DNA of 64,000 nt from NCBI GenBank assembly GCA_964448685.1, contig CAYUWR010000015.1, positions 2,217 to 66,216 on the forward strand, in the 5' to 3' direction. The translations under genes were made by a program, and so were the position numbers. Positions 35,933 through 42,916 of the stretch are shown here, piece after piece (the first letter of the stretch is position 1; each line of letters starts with the position of its first letter). The stretch comes from an uncultured Nitrososphaeria archaeon. Lineage in GTDB: Archaea; Thermoproteota; Nitrososphaeria; JACIWG01. Below the pieces are notes generated by a model. It saw only the letters and a list, made by a program, of their open reading frames with translations, did no database searches and was not told where the DNA came from.

Positions 35933-36160
35933 CTGAAAAAGTATGCAACGATATCCATCCCATTAGAGGTAAAGAGAATTTTGGAGAAGGCGAAAGATAA
36001 AGAAGAGTGGGGAACATTCCTGCTTAGTCTTTACAATGAACTTAGGAGGTTAAAAGGTTTAGAGGCGTTTGAGAATTTGAAGAAAACTTTATCGGAAGAG
36101 GACTTAAGGTCCATCATGGAGTCGAGTAGGGAGTTCAGGGAGAGGTTCAGCTTCAGATGA
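35933..36160 (+). CDS. VapB-like antitoxin (75 aa, apparent CTG start)
   Basis: Manual translation (M)KKYATISIPLEVKRILEKAK...REFRERFSFR. GGTGA SD upstream; stop overlaps the vapC ATG. Missed by the ORF track. Confidence 0.75.
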   Translation: MKKYATISIPLEVKRILEKAKDKEEWGTFLLSLYNELRRLKGLEAFENLKKTLSEEDLRSIMESSREFRERFSFR

Positions 36161-36513
36161 AGTTGTTCGATACAGACGCTATTGTAGACATGTTGAAGGC
36201 TGAAAAGTATGAGCATGGAAGCATATCCGTTGTAACGTTAACAGAAATTTTGAGGGGTGTGAAGGATGACAAGAGGGGTTTAGTGAAGAAGTTGCTGGAA
36301 GATAGCTTTAATGCCATATGGCTTGATAACGATATTGTCCAGGCCTATTGTAAAATCTATCGAAATCTTAAAGAAAGGGGGGAACTAATTCCTGACGCGG
36401 ACATATTAATAGCGGCTACAGCGGTTTCAAAAAATCTTAGCCTAATTTCAAACGACATGCATTTCGAAAAAGTGGCAGCCTTTGGATTAAAGTTGATGAA
36501 AAACTGGAGATAA
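36157..36513 (+). CDS. VapC PIN-domain toxin
   Basis: LFDTDAIVD, TLTEI, DADILIAATA, SND.HF. Confidence 0.9.
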   Translation: MKLFDTDAIVDMLKAEKYEHGSISVVTLTEILRGVKDDKRGLVKKLLEDSFNAIWLDNDIVQAYCKIYRNLKERGELIPDADILIAATAVSKNLSLISNDMHFEKVAAFGLKLMKNWR

Positions 36514-36757: not shown

Positions 36758-39340
36758 TCATTGGAAAATGAACGTTTGCAGCAGCCGAAACGCTACCCCA
36801 CCGATGGTGATCGCGAACATGATCTCGAATGATGTTATCAGTATAGCCTTCTTGAGGCCAAACTCTCTTATCAAGGCAGCTATCGTCGATACACAGGGTA
36901 TGTAGAAAAGTGTCACCAAAGTGAACACAATCATCTGCAATGGAGTCAAGACGTTCGCGAAGTTCGTTGTTCCAAGAAGGGTTGCGAGCATCACCAACGT
37001 CAACTCTTTCCTTAACACACCAAAGATCAGAGCTGCACCTGTGAGCATGGGTAGTCCTAGCCAGGCGACAGTTATTGGGCTGAGTATGTTCCCAATAGGC
37101 TCCAGTAGGTTCAGGACTTCAAGTAGCTTGATCGAGAGGCTGCCGACAACTATGAGGGGAAAGGCTATCTTGGCAAATTCCTCTAGCCTGAACCACGTTT
37201 GCTTCACAACCGTTCTGAGGCGGGGAACTCTATAATCGCTCATTTCCATGATTAAAGCCGTTGGCTCTCCAGGTAGGGCTTTGAAGGCGATTCTGCCTAA
37301 GACAAAGATGACTAGCAGGTCAAAGATGTACAATGCCAGAGCCCACTGGATACCTACATATGCGCCGACTAGGCCTAGGATTATTACTGTCCGAGCAGCA
37401 CATGGTATGAGGGTTGTGATAAATCCTGCTATAAGCCTCTCCCTCTCTGTTTCCATGATCCTGCAACCGAGACAGGCGGGAACATTGCATCCGTAACCCA
37501 ACATCACTGGAATGAAGGCTTTGCCATGTAGTCCTATCTTGTGCATCAAGCTATCCATTAGAAACGCGATTCGGCTAAGGTATCCGGAGTCCTCTAGGAA
37601 ATATAGTATGACGTAGAAGGGTGCGATGTATGGGAGTGCTATCGTGATCCCAGCTATCAAGCCTTCAATCAGGCCGCCCCAGATAAGTTCTCCAACCGGA
37701 CCGGCTCCGAATAGGCTGATGAAGATTGGCTGCAATCCGTCAAGAAGGCTGGTCAACACCTTCGAAAGGAAATCTCCGAAGGTGAATACAGTGTAGAAGA
37801 TTGTTAGCATTACAGCAGCCATTATTGGGTAACCCAACAGTCTACTGGTCGTTATGTTGTGGAGGATTTCTCCTGCCCTTGGCTTAAGTGGAGTTCTCAC
37901 CGTCTGCACATTCCGGGTTATTCTCGCAGCCACACCATACCTCTCTGACGCTATCACGGTGGACGAGGGGTGGCCGTGGATTTCTTCAAGCTCCAGAGCA
38001 AGCTTCCTCGCTGTCTTCACGATTTCTGGATCTATCTTTTCAACTTCTTTTTCGATTTCTTCGTCTCCTTGTAGGAGCTGGACTGCCGTATATCTTGGAG
38101 GATACTTCAGAGGGCTGCCTTCGACTAGGCCAGCTATCTTCATTATCCTTTTTTCAACTTCATCCCCATATCTGACAGTAGAGGGCTTCGCGTTCCTATC
38201 AACGAGTCTAACCGCTTCTTCAACGATATCATAGAGACCCACACCTTTCGTCGCAATGGTTGAAATAACCGGTACACCCAGTACTTTAGCCAACTTCTCT
38301 GTATCGATCTCTATTCCCTTGGTCTTTGCCATATCCATCTGATTCAAGGCGATAATCATTGGCTTCTCAAGCTCCATAAGCTGCAGGGTGAAATAGAGGT
38401 TCCTTTCGAGCACCGACGCGTCGACGACATTGACCACCACATCTGGATTCTCACATGCAATATACTCTCTTGAAATCTTCTCCTCTATCGAGAAAGGTGA
38501 AAGGGAATAGATTCCGGGAAGATCAACTACATCGATCGTGTACCCTCTAAAATGTAGAGTGCCCTCAGCCTTCTCAACCGTCTTACCAGGCCAGTTACCT
38601 ATGTGCTGATGAAGCCCTGTCAGATGGTTGAATATCACACTATTATGAACGAAGAGCCCGTTTGCTAGCATGAAGTTTCCATTAGCTTCTACCGATAAAT
38701 CGTATACATAGTCTTTGTTGGAGTCATCCTCTATTTCCGTCACTTCATCCCAGACGATATCTCTGAAGGCGAGTTTCTCTATTAGTCTTGGGATTGTTTT
38801 TCCATGTACGGTCACGAACTCGTCGGAAATCTGATACTGTCTGTTTCCTTTCCTAACTTTGTCTGAAAGAAGATTTCCTATATCTATGGACGATCTGGAC
38901 CGTTCTAAGATTGATAATGTTTCGATTACTGGTAAGAGGTCTCCCTTCAGCAACTGCTTAGCATCTAGCACTTGCAGCTTACCACGTCTTAAAACCATGA
39001 AGTTGTGGTCTTGAGTAGCCTTCAACGTGCGTCCTGAAGAGGTCTCAAGACGAATAAGCTTACGCTTCTCCTTATGCCTCAGAACGTATGTCACTCTCTG
39101 TTTCTCAACCTTTAAGGTTTCTGGGTTCAGTGAGACAACGAAGAGCCCTTCAGGTTTGGCGAACTCCGTTTCGCCAACCTTTTCAACCCTTGAGCAGCCA
39201 AAAACCTCGTCTGCCAGCTCCCTTATTCTTTCTATTTTCCACAACCCATTGTAATAGACGAACACGTATTCTTTTCCGTCAATAGATTTCCCGACATTTG
39301 CATTTCCAGCCAGGGCTATCCTAAGCTTCTTGTCGCCCAC
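36758..39340 (-). CDS. feoB: Ferrous iron transporter FeoB containing an intein
   Basis: GNANVGK|S G1, [40 protein letters not shown]. Removing the 215-aa insert leaves a 645-aa FeoB. Confidence 0.95.
38642..39286 (-). mobile_element. Mini-intein (215 aa, no homing endonuclease) in the FeoB G1 motif
   Basis: Starts SIDGKE, block B ATQDHNF, block F VYDLSV..NF, ends VHN followed by Ser+1. Confidence 0.92.
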
Positions 39341-39614
39341 GCTCCACCACTACATATATCCTCTCAGCCATACCTCTACCGAGCGCAAGCCTCGATCCCC
39401 TGACGAGCACTTCAATAGGCCCTTGAAGAGGCGCCGACTTCACCACAGTCACTAAGGTGCCTGGCGTGAGCCCCATGTCCGCGAGCCGTCTTTCAAAACC
39501 CCATCGTCTACCCCGTCCTCCCGGCCCTCTTCCACATGAGCCGCCGTCAACATTGGATATGATCCCGCTTTCGCCATTCTTTAAAGCGGTTAGAGGCAGC
39601 TCCAAGGCGCTCAT
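39321..39614 (-). CDS. feoA: FeoA family protein
   Basis: RRLADMGLTPG, APLQGPI, RGSRLALGR. Start at ATG 39614. Confidence 0.92.
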   Translation of the reverse strand: MSALELPLTALKNGESGIISNVDGGSCGRGPGGRGRRWGFERRLADMGLTPGTLVTVVKSAPLQGPIEVLVRGSRLALGRGMAERIYVVVERGRQEA

Positions 39615-40276
39615 CTCCCCTTTCTGACCCACACAACAGAGGCAACCTTCTTGCTGATGGGACGATCTTGCCCATCCACCTTCACTATCATCGATCCATC
39701 AAACGCTATCTTTTCTATGACTTCAACATCGGCCCCTGGGACAAGTTTGATCGCCATGAGGTAGTTGAGTATATCTTCGTCTTCGTCCACGATCTTCGTG
39801 ACCACACTTTTTCCCCCTACATGGAGGGCTTCAAGAGGCTGTGCCGCCTCCTCCAAGCCACCGCAGGCAGTAGGGATAGGGTTCCCGTGAGGGCAGGTCT
39901 TCGGATGCCCTAGTGCCTTCTCAAGGGGTTTGACTAGGTCGTCACTTATTGCATGCTCAAGCCCGCAGGCCTGCTTATGGAGCCTACTCCAATCGAGCTT
40001 GAGAAAATCGGATAGCATGCATTCCACCAGCCGATGCCTTCTAACTACATCTACGGCTATTTTATGCCCCTTCTCTGTCAGCTTCGCACCCTTATAGGGT
40101 TCGTGGACTACGAGGTCGTTCTGCTCCAGCGTCTCTATGGTATTTGTCACCGTCCCCAAGCTTACACCCAGCAGGTCCGCCAGCTGCTTCGTTCTGACAA
40201 CACCATATTCGTTTTCAAGTCTGTAGATCTGTTCAAGATATTCCTCTATTGTTGGGGAGACGACCAGCCTAGACAT
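39611..40276 (-). CDS. DtxR/IdeR family metal-dependent repressor with FeoA domain
   Basis: EEYLEQIY, RRHRLVE, LEHA, CPHGNPIP. Confidence 0.92.
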   Translation of the reverse strand: MSRLVVSPTIEEYLEQIYRLENEYGVVRTKQLADLLGVSLGTVTNTIETLEQNDLVVHEPYKGAKLTEKGHKIAVDVVRRHRLVECMLSDFLKLDWSRLHKQACGLEHAISDDLVKPLEKALGHPKTCPHGNPIPTACGGLEEAAQPLEALHVGGKSVVTKIVDEDEDILNYLMAIKLVPGADVEVIEKIAFDGSMIVKVDGQDRPISKKVASVVWVRKGR

Positions 40277-40476: not shown

Positions 40477-40830
40477 TTAGTCTCCTAAACTTTCCCCTCC
40501 TCCATCGACGTCTTGAGAAGACATCTTGTATTCGGTGATATGTAGTGGCCGCCCCTCGCTGAGAGCTTGAGCAGCCTTCCTTCTGGCATTTTGTAGAAGC
40601 CTCCAAACAGTGCCCCTTGACACCATCATTTTTCGGCCAGCCTCCTCTTGAGATAACCCCTCTTGATCCACTAGGCGGAAGGCTTCCAATTCAGCTGGAC
40701 TTATGTGGACAGGCTCAAGATTTTGTAAGGGTAGGGGGGCGAACCTTTCTATGGCTGGGCTTCTCTCGATGTTTATCGGTTTCGGAAGCCTACCTCGTCT
40801 TCCATGTCTGTGTCTGTGCCTGTAGCTCAT
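40477..40830 (-). CDS. DUF134 family HTH protein
   Basis: ELEAFRLVDQEGLSQEEAGRKMMVSRGTVWRLLQNARRK. Confidence 0.88.
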   Translation of the reverse strand: MSYRHRHRHGRRGRLPKPINIERSPAIERFAPLPLQNLEPVHISPAELEAFRLVDQEGLSQEEAGRKMMVSRGTVWRLLQNARRKAAQALSEGRPLHITEYKMSSQDVDGGGESLGD

Positions 40831-40872
40831 GTGCCATCAGTGGGTTTGACCCTGCCCACCTTTATATATTTT

Positions 40873-40911
40873 TGTGCTTATGCAAAAAATATAAATATGT
40901 GCATATGCACA
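40873..40911. promoter_or_regulatory. Tandem palindromic operator TGTGCATATGCACA
   Basis: Perfect 14-bp palindrome at 40898-40911 and a 12/14 copy at 40873-40886, with a TATA-like AATATAAATA between them. Confidence 0.7.
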
Positions 40912-40930
40912 CAATATGCGGTGACAAAGT

Positions 40931-41149
40931 ATGGGATGGAGAGGATTTGGAAGAGGATATGGCATGTGGCCTGGAAGAGGCCCCTTCAGCTATCTACCCC
41001 CATGGCAGAGACCAGGATGGCTTTTCGGAAGAGGGGCATGCTGGTGGTTACTTCCATACATTTACATGTATGGCTACCCACAATATCAGTACTCTAGTGC
41101 TTTCTATGGTACACCCTATCTTCCGCCAACACAATACTATAGGAGGTGA
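40931..41149 (+). CDS. Small Gly/Trp/Tyr/Pro-rich protein (DUF5320-like)
   Basis: WPGRGPFSYLPPWQRPGWLFGRGACWW. GGTGA SD upstream. Confidence 0.75.
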   Translation: MGWRGFGRGYGMWPGRGPFSYLPPWQRPGWLFGRGACWWLLPYIYMYGYPQYQYSSAFYGTPYLPPTQYYRR

Positions 41150-41154
41150 ATCTT

Positions 41155-41667
41155 ATGGGATACCGTAGAAGAAACATGTATTATCTCACAGGAATCCCGG
41201 GATGGATGAGGTTCGGGTACTCGCCTGGTTGGGTGGGCAGATCGCCGACCGGCCTACCACCTACGGCAGAATGGATAATGTCGAGTGGTCTGATGCCTCA
41301 ATTTAGAGAATATCTGAGAACCGGAAGAACATCGCCTGCGGCTGCACCTTATCCTACAGGTGTTGGAGTGAGCAGAGAAGAAGAGGTCAGGATGTTAGAG
41401 GAGCAGGCGAAAGCCATAGAATCTCAGCTTGATGCTACAAAGAAGAGGTTGGAGACATTGAGGAAGAATAGTTCAACCGAACAGTCTCAGAGCAGCCTAT
41501 TTGCATCCTATGGATATCCGCCGACGCTCTCTCCCGAAGAGGAGCTGGCTTCACTGGAGGACTACAGGAAAAGACTTGACGAGGAAGTGAAGGATGTGGA
41601 TGCGAGAATCGGGGAGTTGAAGAGGCTCCGTGAGGGAAAGGCTTCGACAGAGAAGAAGGTGAGCTAG
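41155..41667 (+). CDS. DUF5320-like protein with two coiled-coil modules
   Basis: YYLTGIPGWMRFGYSPGW, SREEEVRMLEEQ and SPEEELASLED. GGAGGTG SD upstream. Confidence 0.8.
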   Translation: MGYRRRNMYYLTGIPGWMRFGYSPGWVGRSPTGLPPTAEWIMSSGLMPQFREYLRTGRTSPAAAPYPTGVGVSREEEVRMLEEQAKAIESQLDATKKRLETLRKNSSTEQSQSSLFASYGYPPTLSPEEELASLEDYRKRLDEEVKDVDARIGELKRLREGKASTEKKVS

Positions 41668-41671
41668 ATAG

Positions 41672-41917
41672 ATGCCATATGGAATTGGACCATTCGGCTG
41701 GTTCATGTACCCATACTGGGGTAGGTGCAGATGGTTCCCTTGGCTTCCGAGACGGTGGTGGACTGGCATATATGGGCCGATAACGCCGTATACTGCACCA
41801 TATTGGATGCCTCCGATATCCAAAGAAGATGAGATAGCCATGCTGGAGGATGAGGCCAAGATCCTCGAACAGGAGCTTGAATTCATAAGAAAAAGGCTGG
41901 AGGAGCTCAAGAAGTAG
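41672..41917 (+). CDS. DUF5320-like small protein
   Basis: GRCRWFPWLPRRWW plus SKEDEIAMLEDEAKILEQEL. Confidence 0.8.
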   Translation: MPYGIGPFGWFMYPYWGRCRWFPWLPRRWWTGIYGPITPYTAPYWMPPISKEDEIAMLEDEAKILEQELEFIRKRLEELKK

Positions 41918-41926
41918 GTGTGGGAC

Positions 41927-42517
41927 ATGAAGGTAGCGGTAACAGCGACAGACGACAGCTTGGATGCCCAAATAGATCCTAGATTTGGCAGATGCCAGTA
42001 CTTCTTGATCGTGGACACCGAGACGATGGAGTTTGAAGCCATCGAAAACACTGCAGTGAACGAGGTAAGTGGCGCTGGCATTCAAGCAGCTCAGACGATC
42101 GCGTCCAAAGGAGCTCAGGTAGTAATAACGGGAAGCGTCGGCCCTAACGCTTACCAAGTGTTGTCGTTGGCCAAGATCAAGATCGTCTCCAGTGTATATG
42201 GCACAGTCAGAAACGCAGTCGAACGCTTCAAAAGAGGAGAATTCAAAGAAGGTCTAGCCCCAAATCCTGTAGGGGGCAGAATGCGAGGCATGGGTGCAGG
42301 TAGAGGGATGGGGCGGACGATGGGCGTGGGTCAAGAGACTGGCGGAAACATTCGAGGAGAGTTTCCAGCTGGCTTCCGAAGGCCTTTCGCTCTAGGAGAG
42401 CCAACTTCGAAAGAAGAAGAAATCTCGATGCTGGAGCATCAAATGGAAATCTTGAAGCAGCAGCTGGAGCAGATCAAGGAAAGGCTTGACAGACTGAAAG
42501 GCTCCACTCCGCACTGA
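41927..42517 (+). CDS. NifB/NifX-like (FeMo-co binding fold) protein with DUF5320-type tail
   Basis: DPRFGRCQYF, GAGIQAAQ, GSVGPNA, then GRGMG repeats and SKEEEISMLEHQ. Confidence 0.88.
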   Translation: MKVAVTATDDSLDAQIDPRFGRCQYFLIVDTETMEFEAIENTAVNEVSGAGIQAAQTIASKGAQVVITGSVGPNAYQVLSLAKIKIVSSVYGTVRNAVERFKRGEFKEGLAPNPVGGRMRGMGAGRGMGRTMGVGQETGGNIRGEFPAGFRRPFALGEPTSKEEEISMLEHQMEILKQQLEQIKERLDRLKGSTPH

Positions 42518-42535
42518 CCTCATAGGTGGATACAG

Positions 42536-42916
42536 TTGGGAAAGGTTAGGGTAGCTTTGCCAACCAAGGATGACAAGGGTTTGGATGATGAAGTATCTGA
42601 GATGTTCGGCAAAGCAAAGACGATCACCATCGTAGACATCTCAGACGGGAAGATAGAGAAAGTCAAGATGATTCAGAATCCAGCTGCATCTTTCAGGTTC
42701 GGAGCAGGCCCTATCCTGGTGAAGACCCTAGTTGACATGCGGACAGACGTCATAGTAGCCGGAGAACTCGGCCCAGGCGCCTCAGCGTTGATCGAAGACC
42801 ATAAGATGTGCAAGGTCACCGTGAAGCCCGGTACAAGAGTGAGAGAAGCCATAAAGATCGCTGAACCCAGATTCGTCAAAATACGTTCCAGAGATTTCGA
42901 AGATAGCAGCAGTTGA
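42536..42916 (+). CDS. NifB/NifX-like protein
   Basis: VSEMFGKAK, NPA...GAGP, GELGPGA. Confidence 0.85.
   Translation: MGKVRVALPTKDDKGLDDEVSEMFGKAKTITIVDISDGKIEKVKMIQNPAASFRFGAGPILVKTLVDMRTDVIVAGELGPGASALIEDHKMCKVTVKPGTRVREAIKIAEPRFVKIRSRDFEDSSS

What the first reader, a model, noticed from the sequence alone, without database searches (positions are those of the whole stretch)
38642..39286. Mini-intein inserted in the G1 (P-loop) motif of the iron transporter FeoB
Seen: 215 aa inserted between GNANVGK and S(VIFNHLTG), with Ser1, TxxH block B, block F and terminal His-Asn. The +1 nucleophile is the Mg-coordinating G1 Ser, so the unspliced precursor should be GTPase-dead. There is no LAGLIDADG; the linker ends at TIPRLI, as if the endonuclease had been deleted. 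Known: inteins favour P-loops, mostly in replication/repair enzymes, and splicing of several inteins is inhibited by divalent metals or oxidative stress (e.g. mycobacterial SufB). I do not know of a characterised FeoB intein. Inference: an immobile intein retained in a DtxR-linked iron importer could act as a post-translational metal/redox switch on Fe2+ uptake.
Basis: partly seen in the sequence, partly recalled or inferred. Interest (0 to 1): 0.85.

Follow-up and report, generated by a model that had tools for sequence, protein, structure and literature searches.

The report
Endonuclease-less mini-intein in FeoB P-loop
The only ferrous-iron transporter gene (feoB) of this hot-spring archaeon is interrupted in its GTP-binding loop by a 215-residue self-splicing protein element that has lost its homing endonuclease; it is a real and apparently undescribed intein host, but nothing indicates it is more than an ordinary selfish-element remnant.

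Summary
Window 38642-39286 (minus strand) encodes a 215-aa class 1 intein. It lies between GNANVGK and S(VIFNHLTG) of an 860-aa FeoB (36758-39340, minus strand). It has Ser1, block B TQDH, the block F Asp, a terminal His-Asn and Ser+1.

Eighteen further database clusters carry a homologous intein at the same site with both junctions readable. All share these residues. Five of them are 458-aa inteins with a LAGLIDADG endonuclease plus an XRE-type HTH. The window's intein keeps both flanks of that module, so it is an in-frame 243-aa deletion derivative.

The allele is rare and patchy:
- It was found in only 1 of 401 same-class genomes, the window's own.
- It was found in 3 loci among GTDB species representatives.
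- The nearest FeoB on the extein tree has no intein.

The proposed metal/redox switch is not supported. Both nucleophiles are serines. Six of 19 family members have no cysteine at all. A DtxR-type repressor already sits in the operon.

The most likely reading is a constitutively splicing, immobile selfish remnant. It is a new host protein for a known kind of element. No paper on a FeoB intein was found. Interest is modest.

The parts
36758..39340 (-). feoB precursor ORF, 860 aa plus stop, GTG start. It is the only FeoB found in the 76%-complete genome.
   Evidence: TIGR00437 scores 529.6 bits and Pfam finds FeoB_N, FeoB_Cyto, Gate x2 and FeoB_C. One search gives one FeoB_N match over the cut-off on its own; a second, weak match (23 bits alone, 29.5 with its neighbours in the frame) lies in a 424-aa frame on C38.
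39287..39340 (-). N-extein, 18 aa ([18 protein letters not shown]). It holds strand beta-1 and the P-loop up to the Lys at position -1.
38642..39286 (-). Class 1 mini-intein, 215 aa (protein residues 19-233).
39284..39286 (-). Ser1 codon (TCT), the first nucleophile.
   Evidence: sequence; invariant in 19 of 19
39005..39016 (-). Block B T91-Q-D-H94 (TxxH).
   Evidence: T91, D93, H94 invariant
38768..38905 (-). Residual linker, intein residues 128-173. It corresponds to the lead-in to the endonuclease of the 458-aa alleles. The deletion junction lies at about R167/L168-I169 (38780-38788). The model has low confidence here.
   Evidence: alignment; (segments with pLDDT under 50: 128-134, 137-154, 168-173)
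38642..38710 (-). Blocks F and G: YVYD196LSVE...[11 protein letters not shown]214N215.
38639..38641 (-). +1 Ser codon (AGT). This is the Ser of the G1 motif GNANVGKS.
36761..38641 (-). C-extein, 627 aa: the rest of the G domain, the helical domain and the membrane domain.
39321..39632 (-). feoA, overlapping the feoB start.
   Evidence: PF04023, E 1.6e-21
39611..40276 (-). DtxR-family iron-dependent repressor with a C-terminal FeoA-like domain.
   Evidence: PF02742 2.3e-30, PF01325 3.7e-17, PF04023 1.4e-14

Best explanation
This is a canonical class 1 mini-intein and a degenerate selfish element.

Origin. A 458-aa intein carrying a LAGLIDADG homing endonuclease plus an HTH domain once homed into the conserved DNA that encodes the FeoB P-loop. 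In this lineage an in-frame deletion then removed the 243-aa endonuclease/HTH module. The splicing (HINT) domain remained, together with a roughly 45-aa linker that is probably disordered.

How it works (inferred). After translation of the 18-aa N-extein and the intein:
1. Ser1 makes an N-O acyl shift at Lys18-Ser19.
2. Ser+1 takes over the N-extein by transesterification.
3. Asn215 cyclises and releases the intein.
4. An O-N shift restores the peptide bond.
The product is a 645-aa FeoB with an intact GNANVGKS P-loop.

Splicing is probably constitutive and early, because only 233 residues must be made before it can start. The intein persists because imprecise loss would destroy the P-loop, not because it regulates iron uptake. 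Iron control is provided at the transcriptional level by the DtxR-type repressor in the operon.

Shown: the identity, position, motif conservation, fold, deletion origin, patchy distribution and purifying selection. Inferred: that splicing happens, that it is constitutive, and that the precursor cannot bind GTP.
For: Family and fold. The intein models pass their curated cut-offs. The model has a HINT fold and its best PDB matches are inteins.

Catalytic residues. Ser1, TxxH, the block F Asp, His-Asn and Ser+1 are invariant in 19 of 19 sequences with both junctions.

Deletion origin. Five alleles are exactly 458 aa. They carry LAGLIDADG (PF14528) and HTH_31 (PF13560) between ...VHGxxIPR and LExLAFxD, and the window keeps both flanks. 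The 14 mini forms range from 175 to 218 aa with different breakpoints, and full versus mini needs 2-3 changes on the trees. That is the repeated endonuclease loss expected in a homing cycle.

Patchiness.
- Only G000 among 401 same-class genomes has a FeoB-intein match; 0 of 9 same-family genomes do.
- 3 loci were confirmed in the GTDB representative scan.
- On an extein tree of 121 FeoBs, intein presence needs at least 6 changes, and the window's FeoB is sister to the intein-free P0022 with support 100.

The gene is live.
- It is the only FeoB found in the genome.
- Contigs about 98% identical from other runs span both junctions with no indel.
- Against run X2, the intein has 7 synonymous and 7 non-synonymous changes (pN/pS about 0.29; binomial P 0.02 against neutrality). 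The extein part has 8 and 5 (about 0.19).

Context. The genome is intein-rich: 13 profile matches in about 7 open frames.
Against: - Nothing here shows that splicing occurs, or under what conditions.
- The selection estimate rests on 14 substitutions, and the four runs share alleles, so they are not independent.
- The C-terminal 8 residues of the model have low confidence.
- Long persistence of mini forms with all catalytic residues kept would also be expected if splicing were regulated.
- Intein and extein trees are broadly congruent in terminal clades, so recent horizontal homing is not shown.
Confidence: 0.8

Rival explanations
1. Conditional protein splicing acts as a post-translational gate on Fe2+ uptake. 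A divalent metal or oxidant binds the intein active site, blocks splicing, and so keeps newly made FeoB GTPase-dead when iron or oxidative stress is high.
For: - The intein splits the P-loop between the Lys and the Ser that, by textbook knowledge of P-loop GTPases (recalled), coordinates Mg2+. Splicing is therefore obligatory for activity.
- This is the only FeoB found in the genome.
- The endonuclease-less intein is under purifying selection.
- Metal- and redox-controlled inteins exist, including a HEN-less P-loop intein in mycobacterial DnaB (passages read).
- The invariant active-site His94, Asp196 and His214 could in principle ligate a metal. This is my inference and was not tested.
Against: - Ser1 and Ser+1 are oxygen nucleophiles in 19 of 19 sequences. 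No Cys column is conserved, and 6 of 19 inteins have no Cys. A disulfide or thiolate-metal trap like those of DnaBi1 cannot operate.
- The window's single Cys31 lies in a variable stretch.
- The allele is sporadic, with an intein-free sister FeoB, so the host lineage does not depend on it.
- Endonuclease loss happened repeatedly with different breakpoints, which looks like decay rather than domestication.
- Iron-responsive control already exists through DtxR, and a DtxR-type repressor lies upstream of feoB in all three related intein-bearing loci as well.
Confidence: 0.07
2. Splicing depends on temperature or on folding, without being a dedicated sensor. The Ser/Ser intein of a hot-spring archaeon may splice efficiently only at high temperature or only when the G domain folds, so the amount of mature FeoB tracks temperature as a by-product.
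For: - Runs holding this DNA are labelled hot springs or sediment metagenomes.
- The closest sequence and fold matches are inteins of hyperthermophiles: PI-PkoII, the Pab/Pho CDC21 inteins and the Pho RadA intein.
- A review lists temperature among the cues that control splicing in hyperthermophilic archaea (passages read).
Against: If true, this is a general property of thermophile inteins and not a feature of this locus.
Confidence: 0.1
3. The intein no longer splices, so feoB is functionally dead in this organism.
For: Splicing is unproven. The genome is only 76% complete, so another iron importer could exist.
Against: - Every catalytic residue is intact.
- The 860-aa frame is open.
- Contigs about 98% identical from other samples keep the frame with no indels.
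- Both intein and extein show an excess of synonymous change.
Confidence: 0.03

Closest known systems
P-loop (Walker A / G1) inteins of archaeal and bacterial NTPases, such as MCM site a, DnaB site b, RFC-S and the archaeal IF2/aIF5B GTPase
   Same: The intein is inserted inside the phosphate-binding loop of a P-loop NTPase. The survey by Novikova et al. (PMC4760082; passages read) describes this as a recurrent intein site and lists aIF2, a P-loop NTPase, among the top archaeal hosts. The nearest non-FeoB relatives of this intein sit in MCM, a DEAD-box helicase and NrdD, at 33-39% identity.
   Different: The host is an iron transporter with a membrane domain, not a replication, repair or translation protein. 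The words iron, GTP and transporter do not occur in that survey's main text; its supplements could not be opened. That the aIF5B intein lies in G1 itself is recalled, not checked.
Mycobacterium smegmatis DnaBi1 (a HEN-less P-loop intein whose splicing is zinc- and redox-responsive)
   Same: It is an endonuclease-less intein in the P-loop of an essential NTPase, with Ser as the +1 residue. It is the model for the switch idea (passages read).
   Different: DnaBi1 is a class 3 intein whose internal Cys118 is the initiating nucleophile. Zinc binds that Cys, and a Cys118-Cys48 disulfide gives the redox control. The FeoB intein is class 1 with Ser1 and has no conserved Cys.
Pyrococcus horikoshii RadA mini-intein, the Pab/Pho CDC21-1 mini-inteins and PI-PkoII
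   Same: These are the closest solved structures. By fold: 4e2t at E 8.5e-14 with target TM 0.86, and 6rpp. By sequence: 2cw7 at E 7.6e-18 and 6rpp at 1.4e-15. All are archaeal HINT domains from thermophiles.
   Different: The hosts and insertion sites differ, and identity is only 20-34%. The FeoB intein keeps an extra, low-confidence linker of about 45 aa left over from its lost endonuclease.
458-aa FeoB inteins of Promethearchaeati (Asgard) and other archaeal MAGs (P0004, P0006-P0009; locus L007)
   Same: The insertion site and catalytic residues are the same, with 50-56% identity over the shared parts. They are the full-length form of the same intein allele.
   Different: They retain the LAGLIDADG endonuclease and an XRE-type HTH, 243 aa that the window's copy lacks.

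Membership tests
Class 1 intein (HINT splicing domain) | Ser or Cys as first residue | tested here: met
   Ser1, codon at 39284-39286; invariant in 19 of 19
Class 1 intein (HINT splicing domain) | Block B TxxH | tested here: met
   T91-Q-D-H94; T91, D93 and H94 invariant
Class 1 intein (HINT splicing domain) | Block F Asp and block G His-Asn at the C-terminus, followed by Ser, Thr or Cys at +1 | tested here: met
   D196, H214, N215 and Ser+1 are invariant
Class 1 intein (HINT splicing domain) | Curated profile models matched above their cut-offs | tested here: met
   PF14890 93.6 bits against 35.8; TIGR01445 43.3 against 24.5; TIGR01443 31.8 against 15.6
Class 1 intein (HINT splicing domain) | HINT fold | tested here: met
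   AF2 model pLDDT 74 with a confident core at 1-127 and 175-205. The listed Foldseek PDB hits are inteins or intein-like HINT (BIL) domains, with target TM up to 0.88.
Class 1 intein (HINT splicing domain) | Actual protein splicing | not testable with these tools
   Needs expression and an SDS-PAGE or mass-spectrometry assay.
Mini-intein derived by loss of a homing endonuclease | No endonuclease domain present | tested here: met
   No LAGLIDADG or other nuclease family at E up to 1. The length is 215 aa.
Mini-intein derived by loss of a homing endonuclease | Homologous full-length alleles at the same site carry the endonuclease between the same flanks | tested here: met
   Five 458-aa alleles carry PF14528 plus PF13560. 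The window keeps ...VHGKTIPR and LIEKLAFRD on either side.
FeoB ferrous iron transporter | Equivalog model above its cut-off, and the G domain, helical domain and Gate/FeoB_C membrane domains all present | tested here: met
   TIGR00437 529.6 bits against 315.65; PF02421, PF17910, PF07670 x2 and PF07664 found
FeoB ferrous iron transporter | Intact G1 motif GxxxxGK[S/T] | tested here: not met
   In the precursor, G1 is split between K18 and S234. It would be restored only by splicing. Intein-free homologues read GNANVGKS.
Conditional (redox/metal) splicing switch of the mycobacterial DnaBi1/SufB kind | Catalytic or paired cysteines that form a disulfide or bind the metal | tested here: not met
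   Ser1 and Ser+1. The window's intein has a single Cys that is not conserved, and 6 of 19 family members have no Cys. The DnaBi1 mechanism was read. The SufB mechanism is recalled only.
Conditional (redox/metal) splicing switch of the mycobacterial DnaBi1/SufB kind | Splicing inhibited by a metal or an oxidant | not testable with these tools
   Needs a splicing assay.

The most novel reading that the evidence does not exclude
The FeoB mini-intein is a product-feedback gate. Cytosolic Fe2+ (or another divalent metal) is bound by the invariant active-site His94, Asp196 and His214 next to the Ser nucleophiles and stalls splicing. Newly made FeoB then stays without a P-loop when iron is plentiful. 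This would be a cysteine-independent metal switch on a transporter, layered on DtxR repression.
Probability: 0.06. Interest if true: 0.75.

Novelty: new member of a known kind. Interest (0 to 1): 0.33.

Why it matters
It adds FeoB, a metal transporter with a membrane domain, to the hosts of P-loop inteins. That list is dominated by replication, repair and translation proteins.

It also gives a clean natural series at one insertion site: 458-aa endonuclease-bearing alleles, at least several independently shortened mini forms of 175-218 aa, and empty sites in sister lineages. That series is useful for studying the homing cycle and for mining compact Ser/Ser thermophile inteins as tools.

If splicing proved to respond to metals, it would be the first intein gate on ion uptake. 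Present evidence makes that unlikely.

Tried and rejected
- RNA evidence. The look-up of sequencing runs listed no RNA holder, so nothing can be said about expression.
- Literature. Five searches found no paper on a FeoB intein: FeoB + intein; ferrous iron transport + intein; intein + iron transport + insertion site + archaea; inteins + Bathyarchaeota; intein + P-loop + GTPase + insertion. I opened two of the five papers that hold both FeoB and intein, and they use the two words in unrelated passages. The other three were seen as titles and abstract starts only. Supplements of the 2016 intein survey (PMC4760082) are closed and might list FeoB.
- Longer FeoBs. A search with the intein-free P0022 among proteins of 1139-3250 aa returned only P0006. 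This is weak evidence against multi-intein FeoBs.
- Horizontal transfer. Intein and extein trees of the 19 are broadly congruent in terminal clades and unresolved deeper down, so neither recent homing nor strict vertical descent is shown.
- Base composition. The intein has GC 43.3% and the extein 48.0%. This is too small a difference to argue foreign origin.
- The skip joint 38601 to 39285 in runs X2 and X5. It has only 26 letters on its shorter side, 38 unlike letters lie between the two sides, and the contig piece at 38544-38601 carries 8 mismatches in 58. I read it as intein-free FeoB of other organisms in the same samples, not as an intein-free allele of this organism.
- Pseudogene reading. 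Rejected; see the rival explanations.
Full report
**What is there.** The minus strand of window 36758-39340 is one open frame of 860 codons. It begins [19 protein letters not shown] 215-residue insert follows (SIDGKEY...[12 protein letters not shown], window 38642-39286). The frame then continues [23 protein letters not shown]... through a complete FeoB.

- Pfam finds FeoB_N (E 5.9e-59, starting at profile position 13), FeoB_Cyto, two Gate domains and FeoB_C. Over the insert it finds Intein_splicing (E 1.4e-26 on the insert alone).
- NCBIfam calls the host feoB (TIGR00437, 529.6 bits against a cut-off of 315.65). Its intein_Nterm and intein_Cterm models pass their cut-offs.
- No endonuclease family is reported for the insert, even at E up to 1.
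- Intein-free relatives read [16 protein letters not shown] without a break. This stretch aligns with GNPNVGKT of a solved FeoB G domain, 3k53.

The insert therefore lies between the Lys and the Ser of the G1 motif, and the Ser is the +1 nucleophile. That this Ser/Thr hydroxyl coordinates Mg2+ in P-loop GTPases is textbook knowledge and was not tested here.

**Fold.** An AlphaFold2 model built on 19 aligned sequences has a mean pLDDT of 74. The beta-rich core is confident (blocks covering residues 1-127 and 175-205). Confidence is low in 128-173 and in the last eight residues. The listed Foldseek PDB matches are solved inteins or intein-like HINT (BIL) domains, led by the Pyrococcus horikoshii RadA intein (E 8.5e-14, target TM 0.86-0.88) and the Pab CDC21-1 intein. 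By sequence, the closest solved chains are PI-PkoII (E 7.6e-18) and the same CDC21 inteins.

**It is one member of a FeoB-intein allele family.** A search with residues 1-300 of the precursor listed 120 best proteins. Nineteen clusters (P0003-P0021) carry PF14890 inside a FeoB. The remainder of the list are FeoBs of mostly 640-650 aa without it (one is 748 aa).

Source names, where given, are Bathyarchaeia/Bathyarchaeota, Promethearchaeota and Candidatus Njordarchaeum. The closest intein-free FeoBs are named Nitrososphaeria or Bathyarchaeia.

In the alignment, the window plus 18 clusters show both junctions. All 19 have the insert at the identical site, with Ser1, (V/I)-His-Asn and Ser+1. The record of P0021 begins inside the insert, so only its C junction can be read. 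Invariant intein positions include S1, T91, D93, H94, D196, H214 and N215.

**The endonuclease was deleted.** Five of the 19 inteins are exactly 458 aa (P0004, P0006-P0009). Between ...VHGxxIPR and LExLAFxD(V/I)xWD they carry two LAGLIDADG-type motifs (FFGLYxAEG and LLxGYxxGDGW, read) and a helix-turn-helix. Pfam reports LAGLIDADG_3 (E 1.5e-6 and 1.4e-5) and HTH_31 (E 1.1e-6 and 2.2e-5) for the two scanned.

The window's intein reads ...[24 protein letters not shown]. It keeps both flanks and lacks the 243 residues in between. The lead-in it retains (residues 128-173) is the low-confidence part of the model, as expected for a linker that has lost its domain.

The 14 mini forms measure 175-218 aa and have different breakpoints. 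On both the intein tree and the extein tree, the full/mini state needs 2-3 changes. Endonuclease loss therefore happened more than once.

**Distribution.**
- With the 215-aa intein as query, only the window's own genome among 401 genomes of its class has a FeoB-intein match. The four other genomes that scored hold different inteins, at 31-40% identity, in open frames of 924-1745 aa. None of the 9 same-family genomes scored.
- A pattern scan of the GTDB species representatives with an intein-only alignment confirmed three loci: a Promethearchaeati MAG (1154-aa FeoB with a full intein) and two Bathyarchaeota MAGs. The two patterns used are narrow, so this is a lower bound.
- In the 50%-identity representative library, only two proteins score below 1e-30: a FeoB and a 174-aa fragment. 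The next hits are inteins in a DEAD-box helicase, MCM and NrdD at 33-39% identity.
- On a FastTree of 121 FeoB exteins, intein presence needs at least six changes. The tree holds 19 sequences with the intein removed in silico, P0021's C-extein, and 101 intein-free best hits; these are not a random sample. The window's protein and its 97-98% identical twin P0003 are sister to the intein-free P0022 with support 100.
- Intein and extein trees of the 19 agree in their terminal clades and are unresolved deeper down. The data fit long vertical descent with repeated loss at least as well as recent homing.

**The gene looks alive.**
- The genome (1.52 Mb, 41 contigs, 76% complete) has one clear FeoB.
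- The stretch occurs in 11 listed runs labelled hot springs or sediment metagenome; one may be the source, and no RNA run is listed.
- In four laid runs, contigs about 98% identical cover the gene. In X2 and X4, single contigs span both intein junctions with no insertion or deletion.
- Against the X2 contig, the intein differs at 7 synonymous and 7 non-synonymous sites (143.7 and 501.3 sites; pN/pS about 0.29; binomial P 0.02 against neutrality).
- The covered extein differs at 8 and 5 sites (211.3 and 682.7 sites; about 0.19; P 0.004).
- Counts are small, and the runs share alleles, so this is modest evidence of purifying selection on the intein. At protein level the intein differs from P0003 at 7 of 215 positions. 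The extein differs at 9 of 644, the start codon aside.

**Mechanism.** All residues of the canonical class 1 pathway, as described in PMC10663303 (passages read), are present. The most likely course is:
1. an N-O acyl shift at Lys18-Ser19;
2. transesterification to Ser234;
3. cyclisation of Asn233 (intein N215);
4. an O-N shift, giving a 645-aa FeoB with a restored P-loop and a free 215-aa intein.

Because the N-extein is only 18 residues, splicing can start once about 234 residues are made. That is well before the membrane domain is translated. This point is my inference. It is also an inference that the precursor cannot bind GTP.

**The switch hypothesis.** The locus is a dtxR-feoA-feoB operon. 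A DtxR-type repressor also lies upstream of all three related intein-bearing loci. Iron-responsive control is thus already provided at the level of transcription.

The documented P-loop mini-intein switch, M. smegmatis DnaBi1, is a class 3 intein. Zinc binds its initiating Cys118, and a Cys118-Cys48 disulfide gives the redox response (passages read). The FeoB intein uses Ser at both nucleophilic positions in all 19 sequences. The window's copy has one Cys, in a variable stretch, and six of the 19 inteins have no Cys at all. A thiol-based redox or metal trap is therefore excluded as a family trait.

A cysteine-independent metal site formed by the invariant His94, Asp196 and His214 cannot be excluded by sequence. 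Nothing points to it either. The sporadic distribution, the intein-free sister and the repeated, differently placed endonuclease deletions look like decay of a selfish element rather than domestication. I put the switch at about 6-7%.

**Novelty.** P-loop inteins are a known kind. The survey PMC4760082 stresses them and lists the GTPase aIF2 among archaeal hosts (passages read). Its main text contains no occurrence of iron, GTP or transporter, and its supplements could not be opened.

Five full-text searches found no paper on a FeoB intein. The two co-mention papers I opened are unrelated. Public records name these proteins only as ferrous iron transport protein B or as hypothetical. That InBase lists no FeoB intein is my recollection only.

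I therefore file this as a new member (a new host protein and allele family) of a known kind. Interest is modest for intein biology and low for iron biology, unless conditional splicing is shown.

Noticed in passing
Own genome, outside the window: G000:C19:22857-24845 (locus L010, minus strand): Ribosomal protein uS12 is interrupted by an intein of roughly 500 aa (...PNSAIRK|CVAPDT...ILTGN|CVRIQL). Pfam finds Ribosom_S12_S23 (E 2e-40, in two stretches) plus Intein_splicing. A ribosomal-protein host seems unusual to me; that judgement is recalled, not searched.
   Followed up: partly
Own genome: C9:61924-64623, C10:90588-95378, C19:33158-38065, C22:39179-42553 (L011), C11:160473-162842 (L012): The 1.5-Mb genome is intein-rich, with 13 intein-profile matches in about 7 open frames. 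By my reading of the translated frames the hosts are PolB, MCM (two inteins), a ribonucleotide reductase (two), a T2SSE/VirB11-type ATPase (Pfam) and a PHP-domain protein. Most still carry LAGLIDADG-like parts. The FeoB and PolB inteins are the short ones.
   Followed up: partly
P0004, P0006-P0009 and locus L007:3854-7318: The full-length FeoB inteins carry an XRE-type helix-turn-helix (PF13560/PF01381) after the LAGLIDADG domain. All five are exactly 458 aa. P0004 has Tyr where the others have the Asp of the second LAGLIDADG motif (GYFRGYGW against GYFxGDGW), so its endonuclease may be inactive.
   Followed up: no
window 40477-42916: Next to the feo operon lie a DUF134 HTH protein (40477-40830, minus strand) and two NifX/NifB-like Nitro_FeMo-Co domain proteins (41918-42517 with a DUF5320 tail, and 42536-42916, plus strand). 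Short Pro/Trp/Tyr-rich ORFs that end in similar coiled-coil tails (41146-41667, 41672-41917) lie among them.
   Followed up: no
window 36157-36513 (+): A PIN-domain protein (PF01850, E 2e-10) lies just downstream of feoB on the other strand.
   Followed up: no
window 38544-38601 and 39285 onward, runs X2 and X5: Contigs of other organisms carry intein-free feoB in the same samples. They appear as a joint that skips the intein, with 38 unlike letters between its two sides. Empty target sites thus co-occur with this immobile intein.
   Followed up: no
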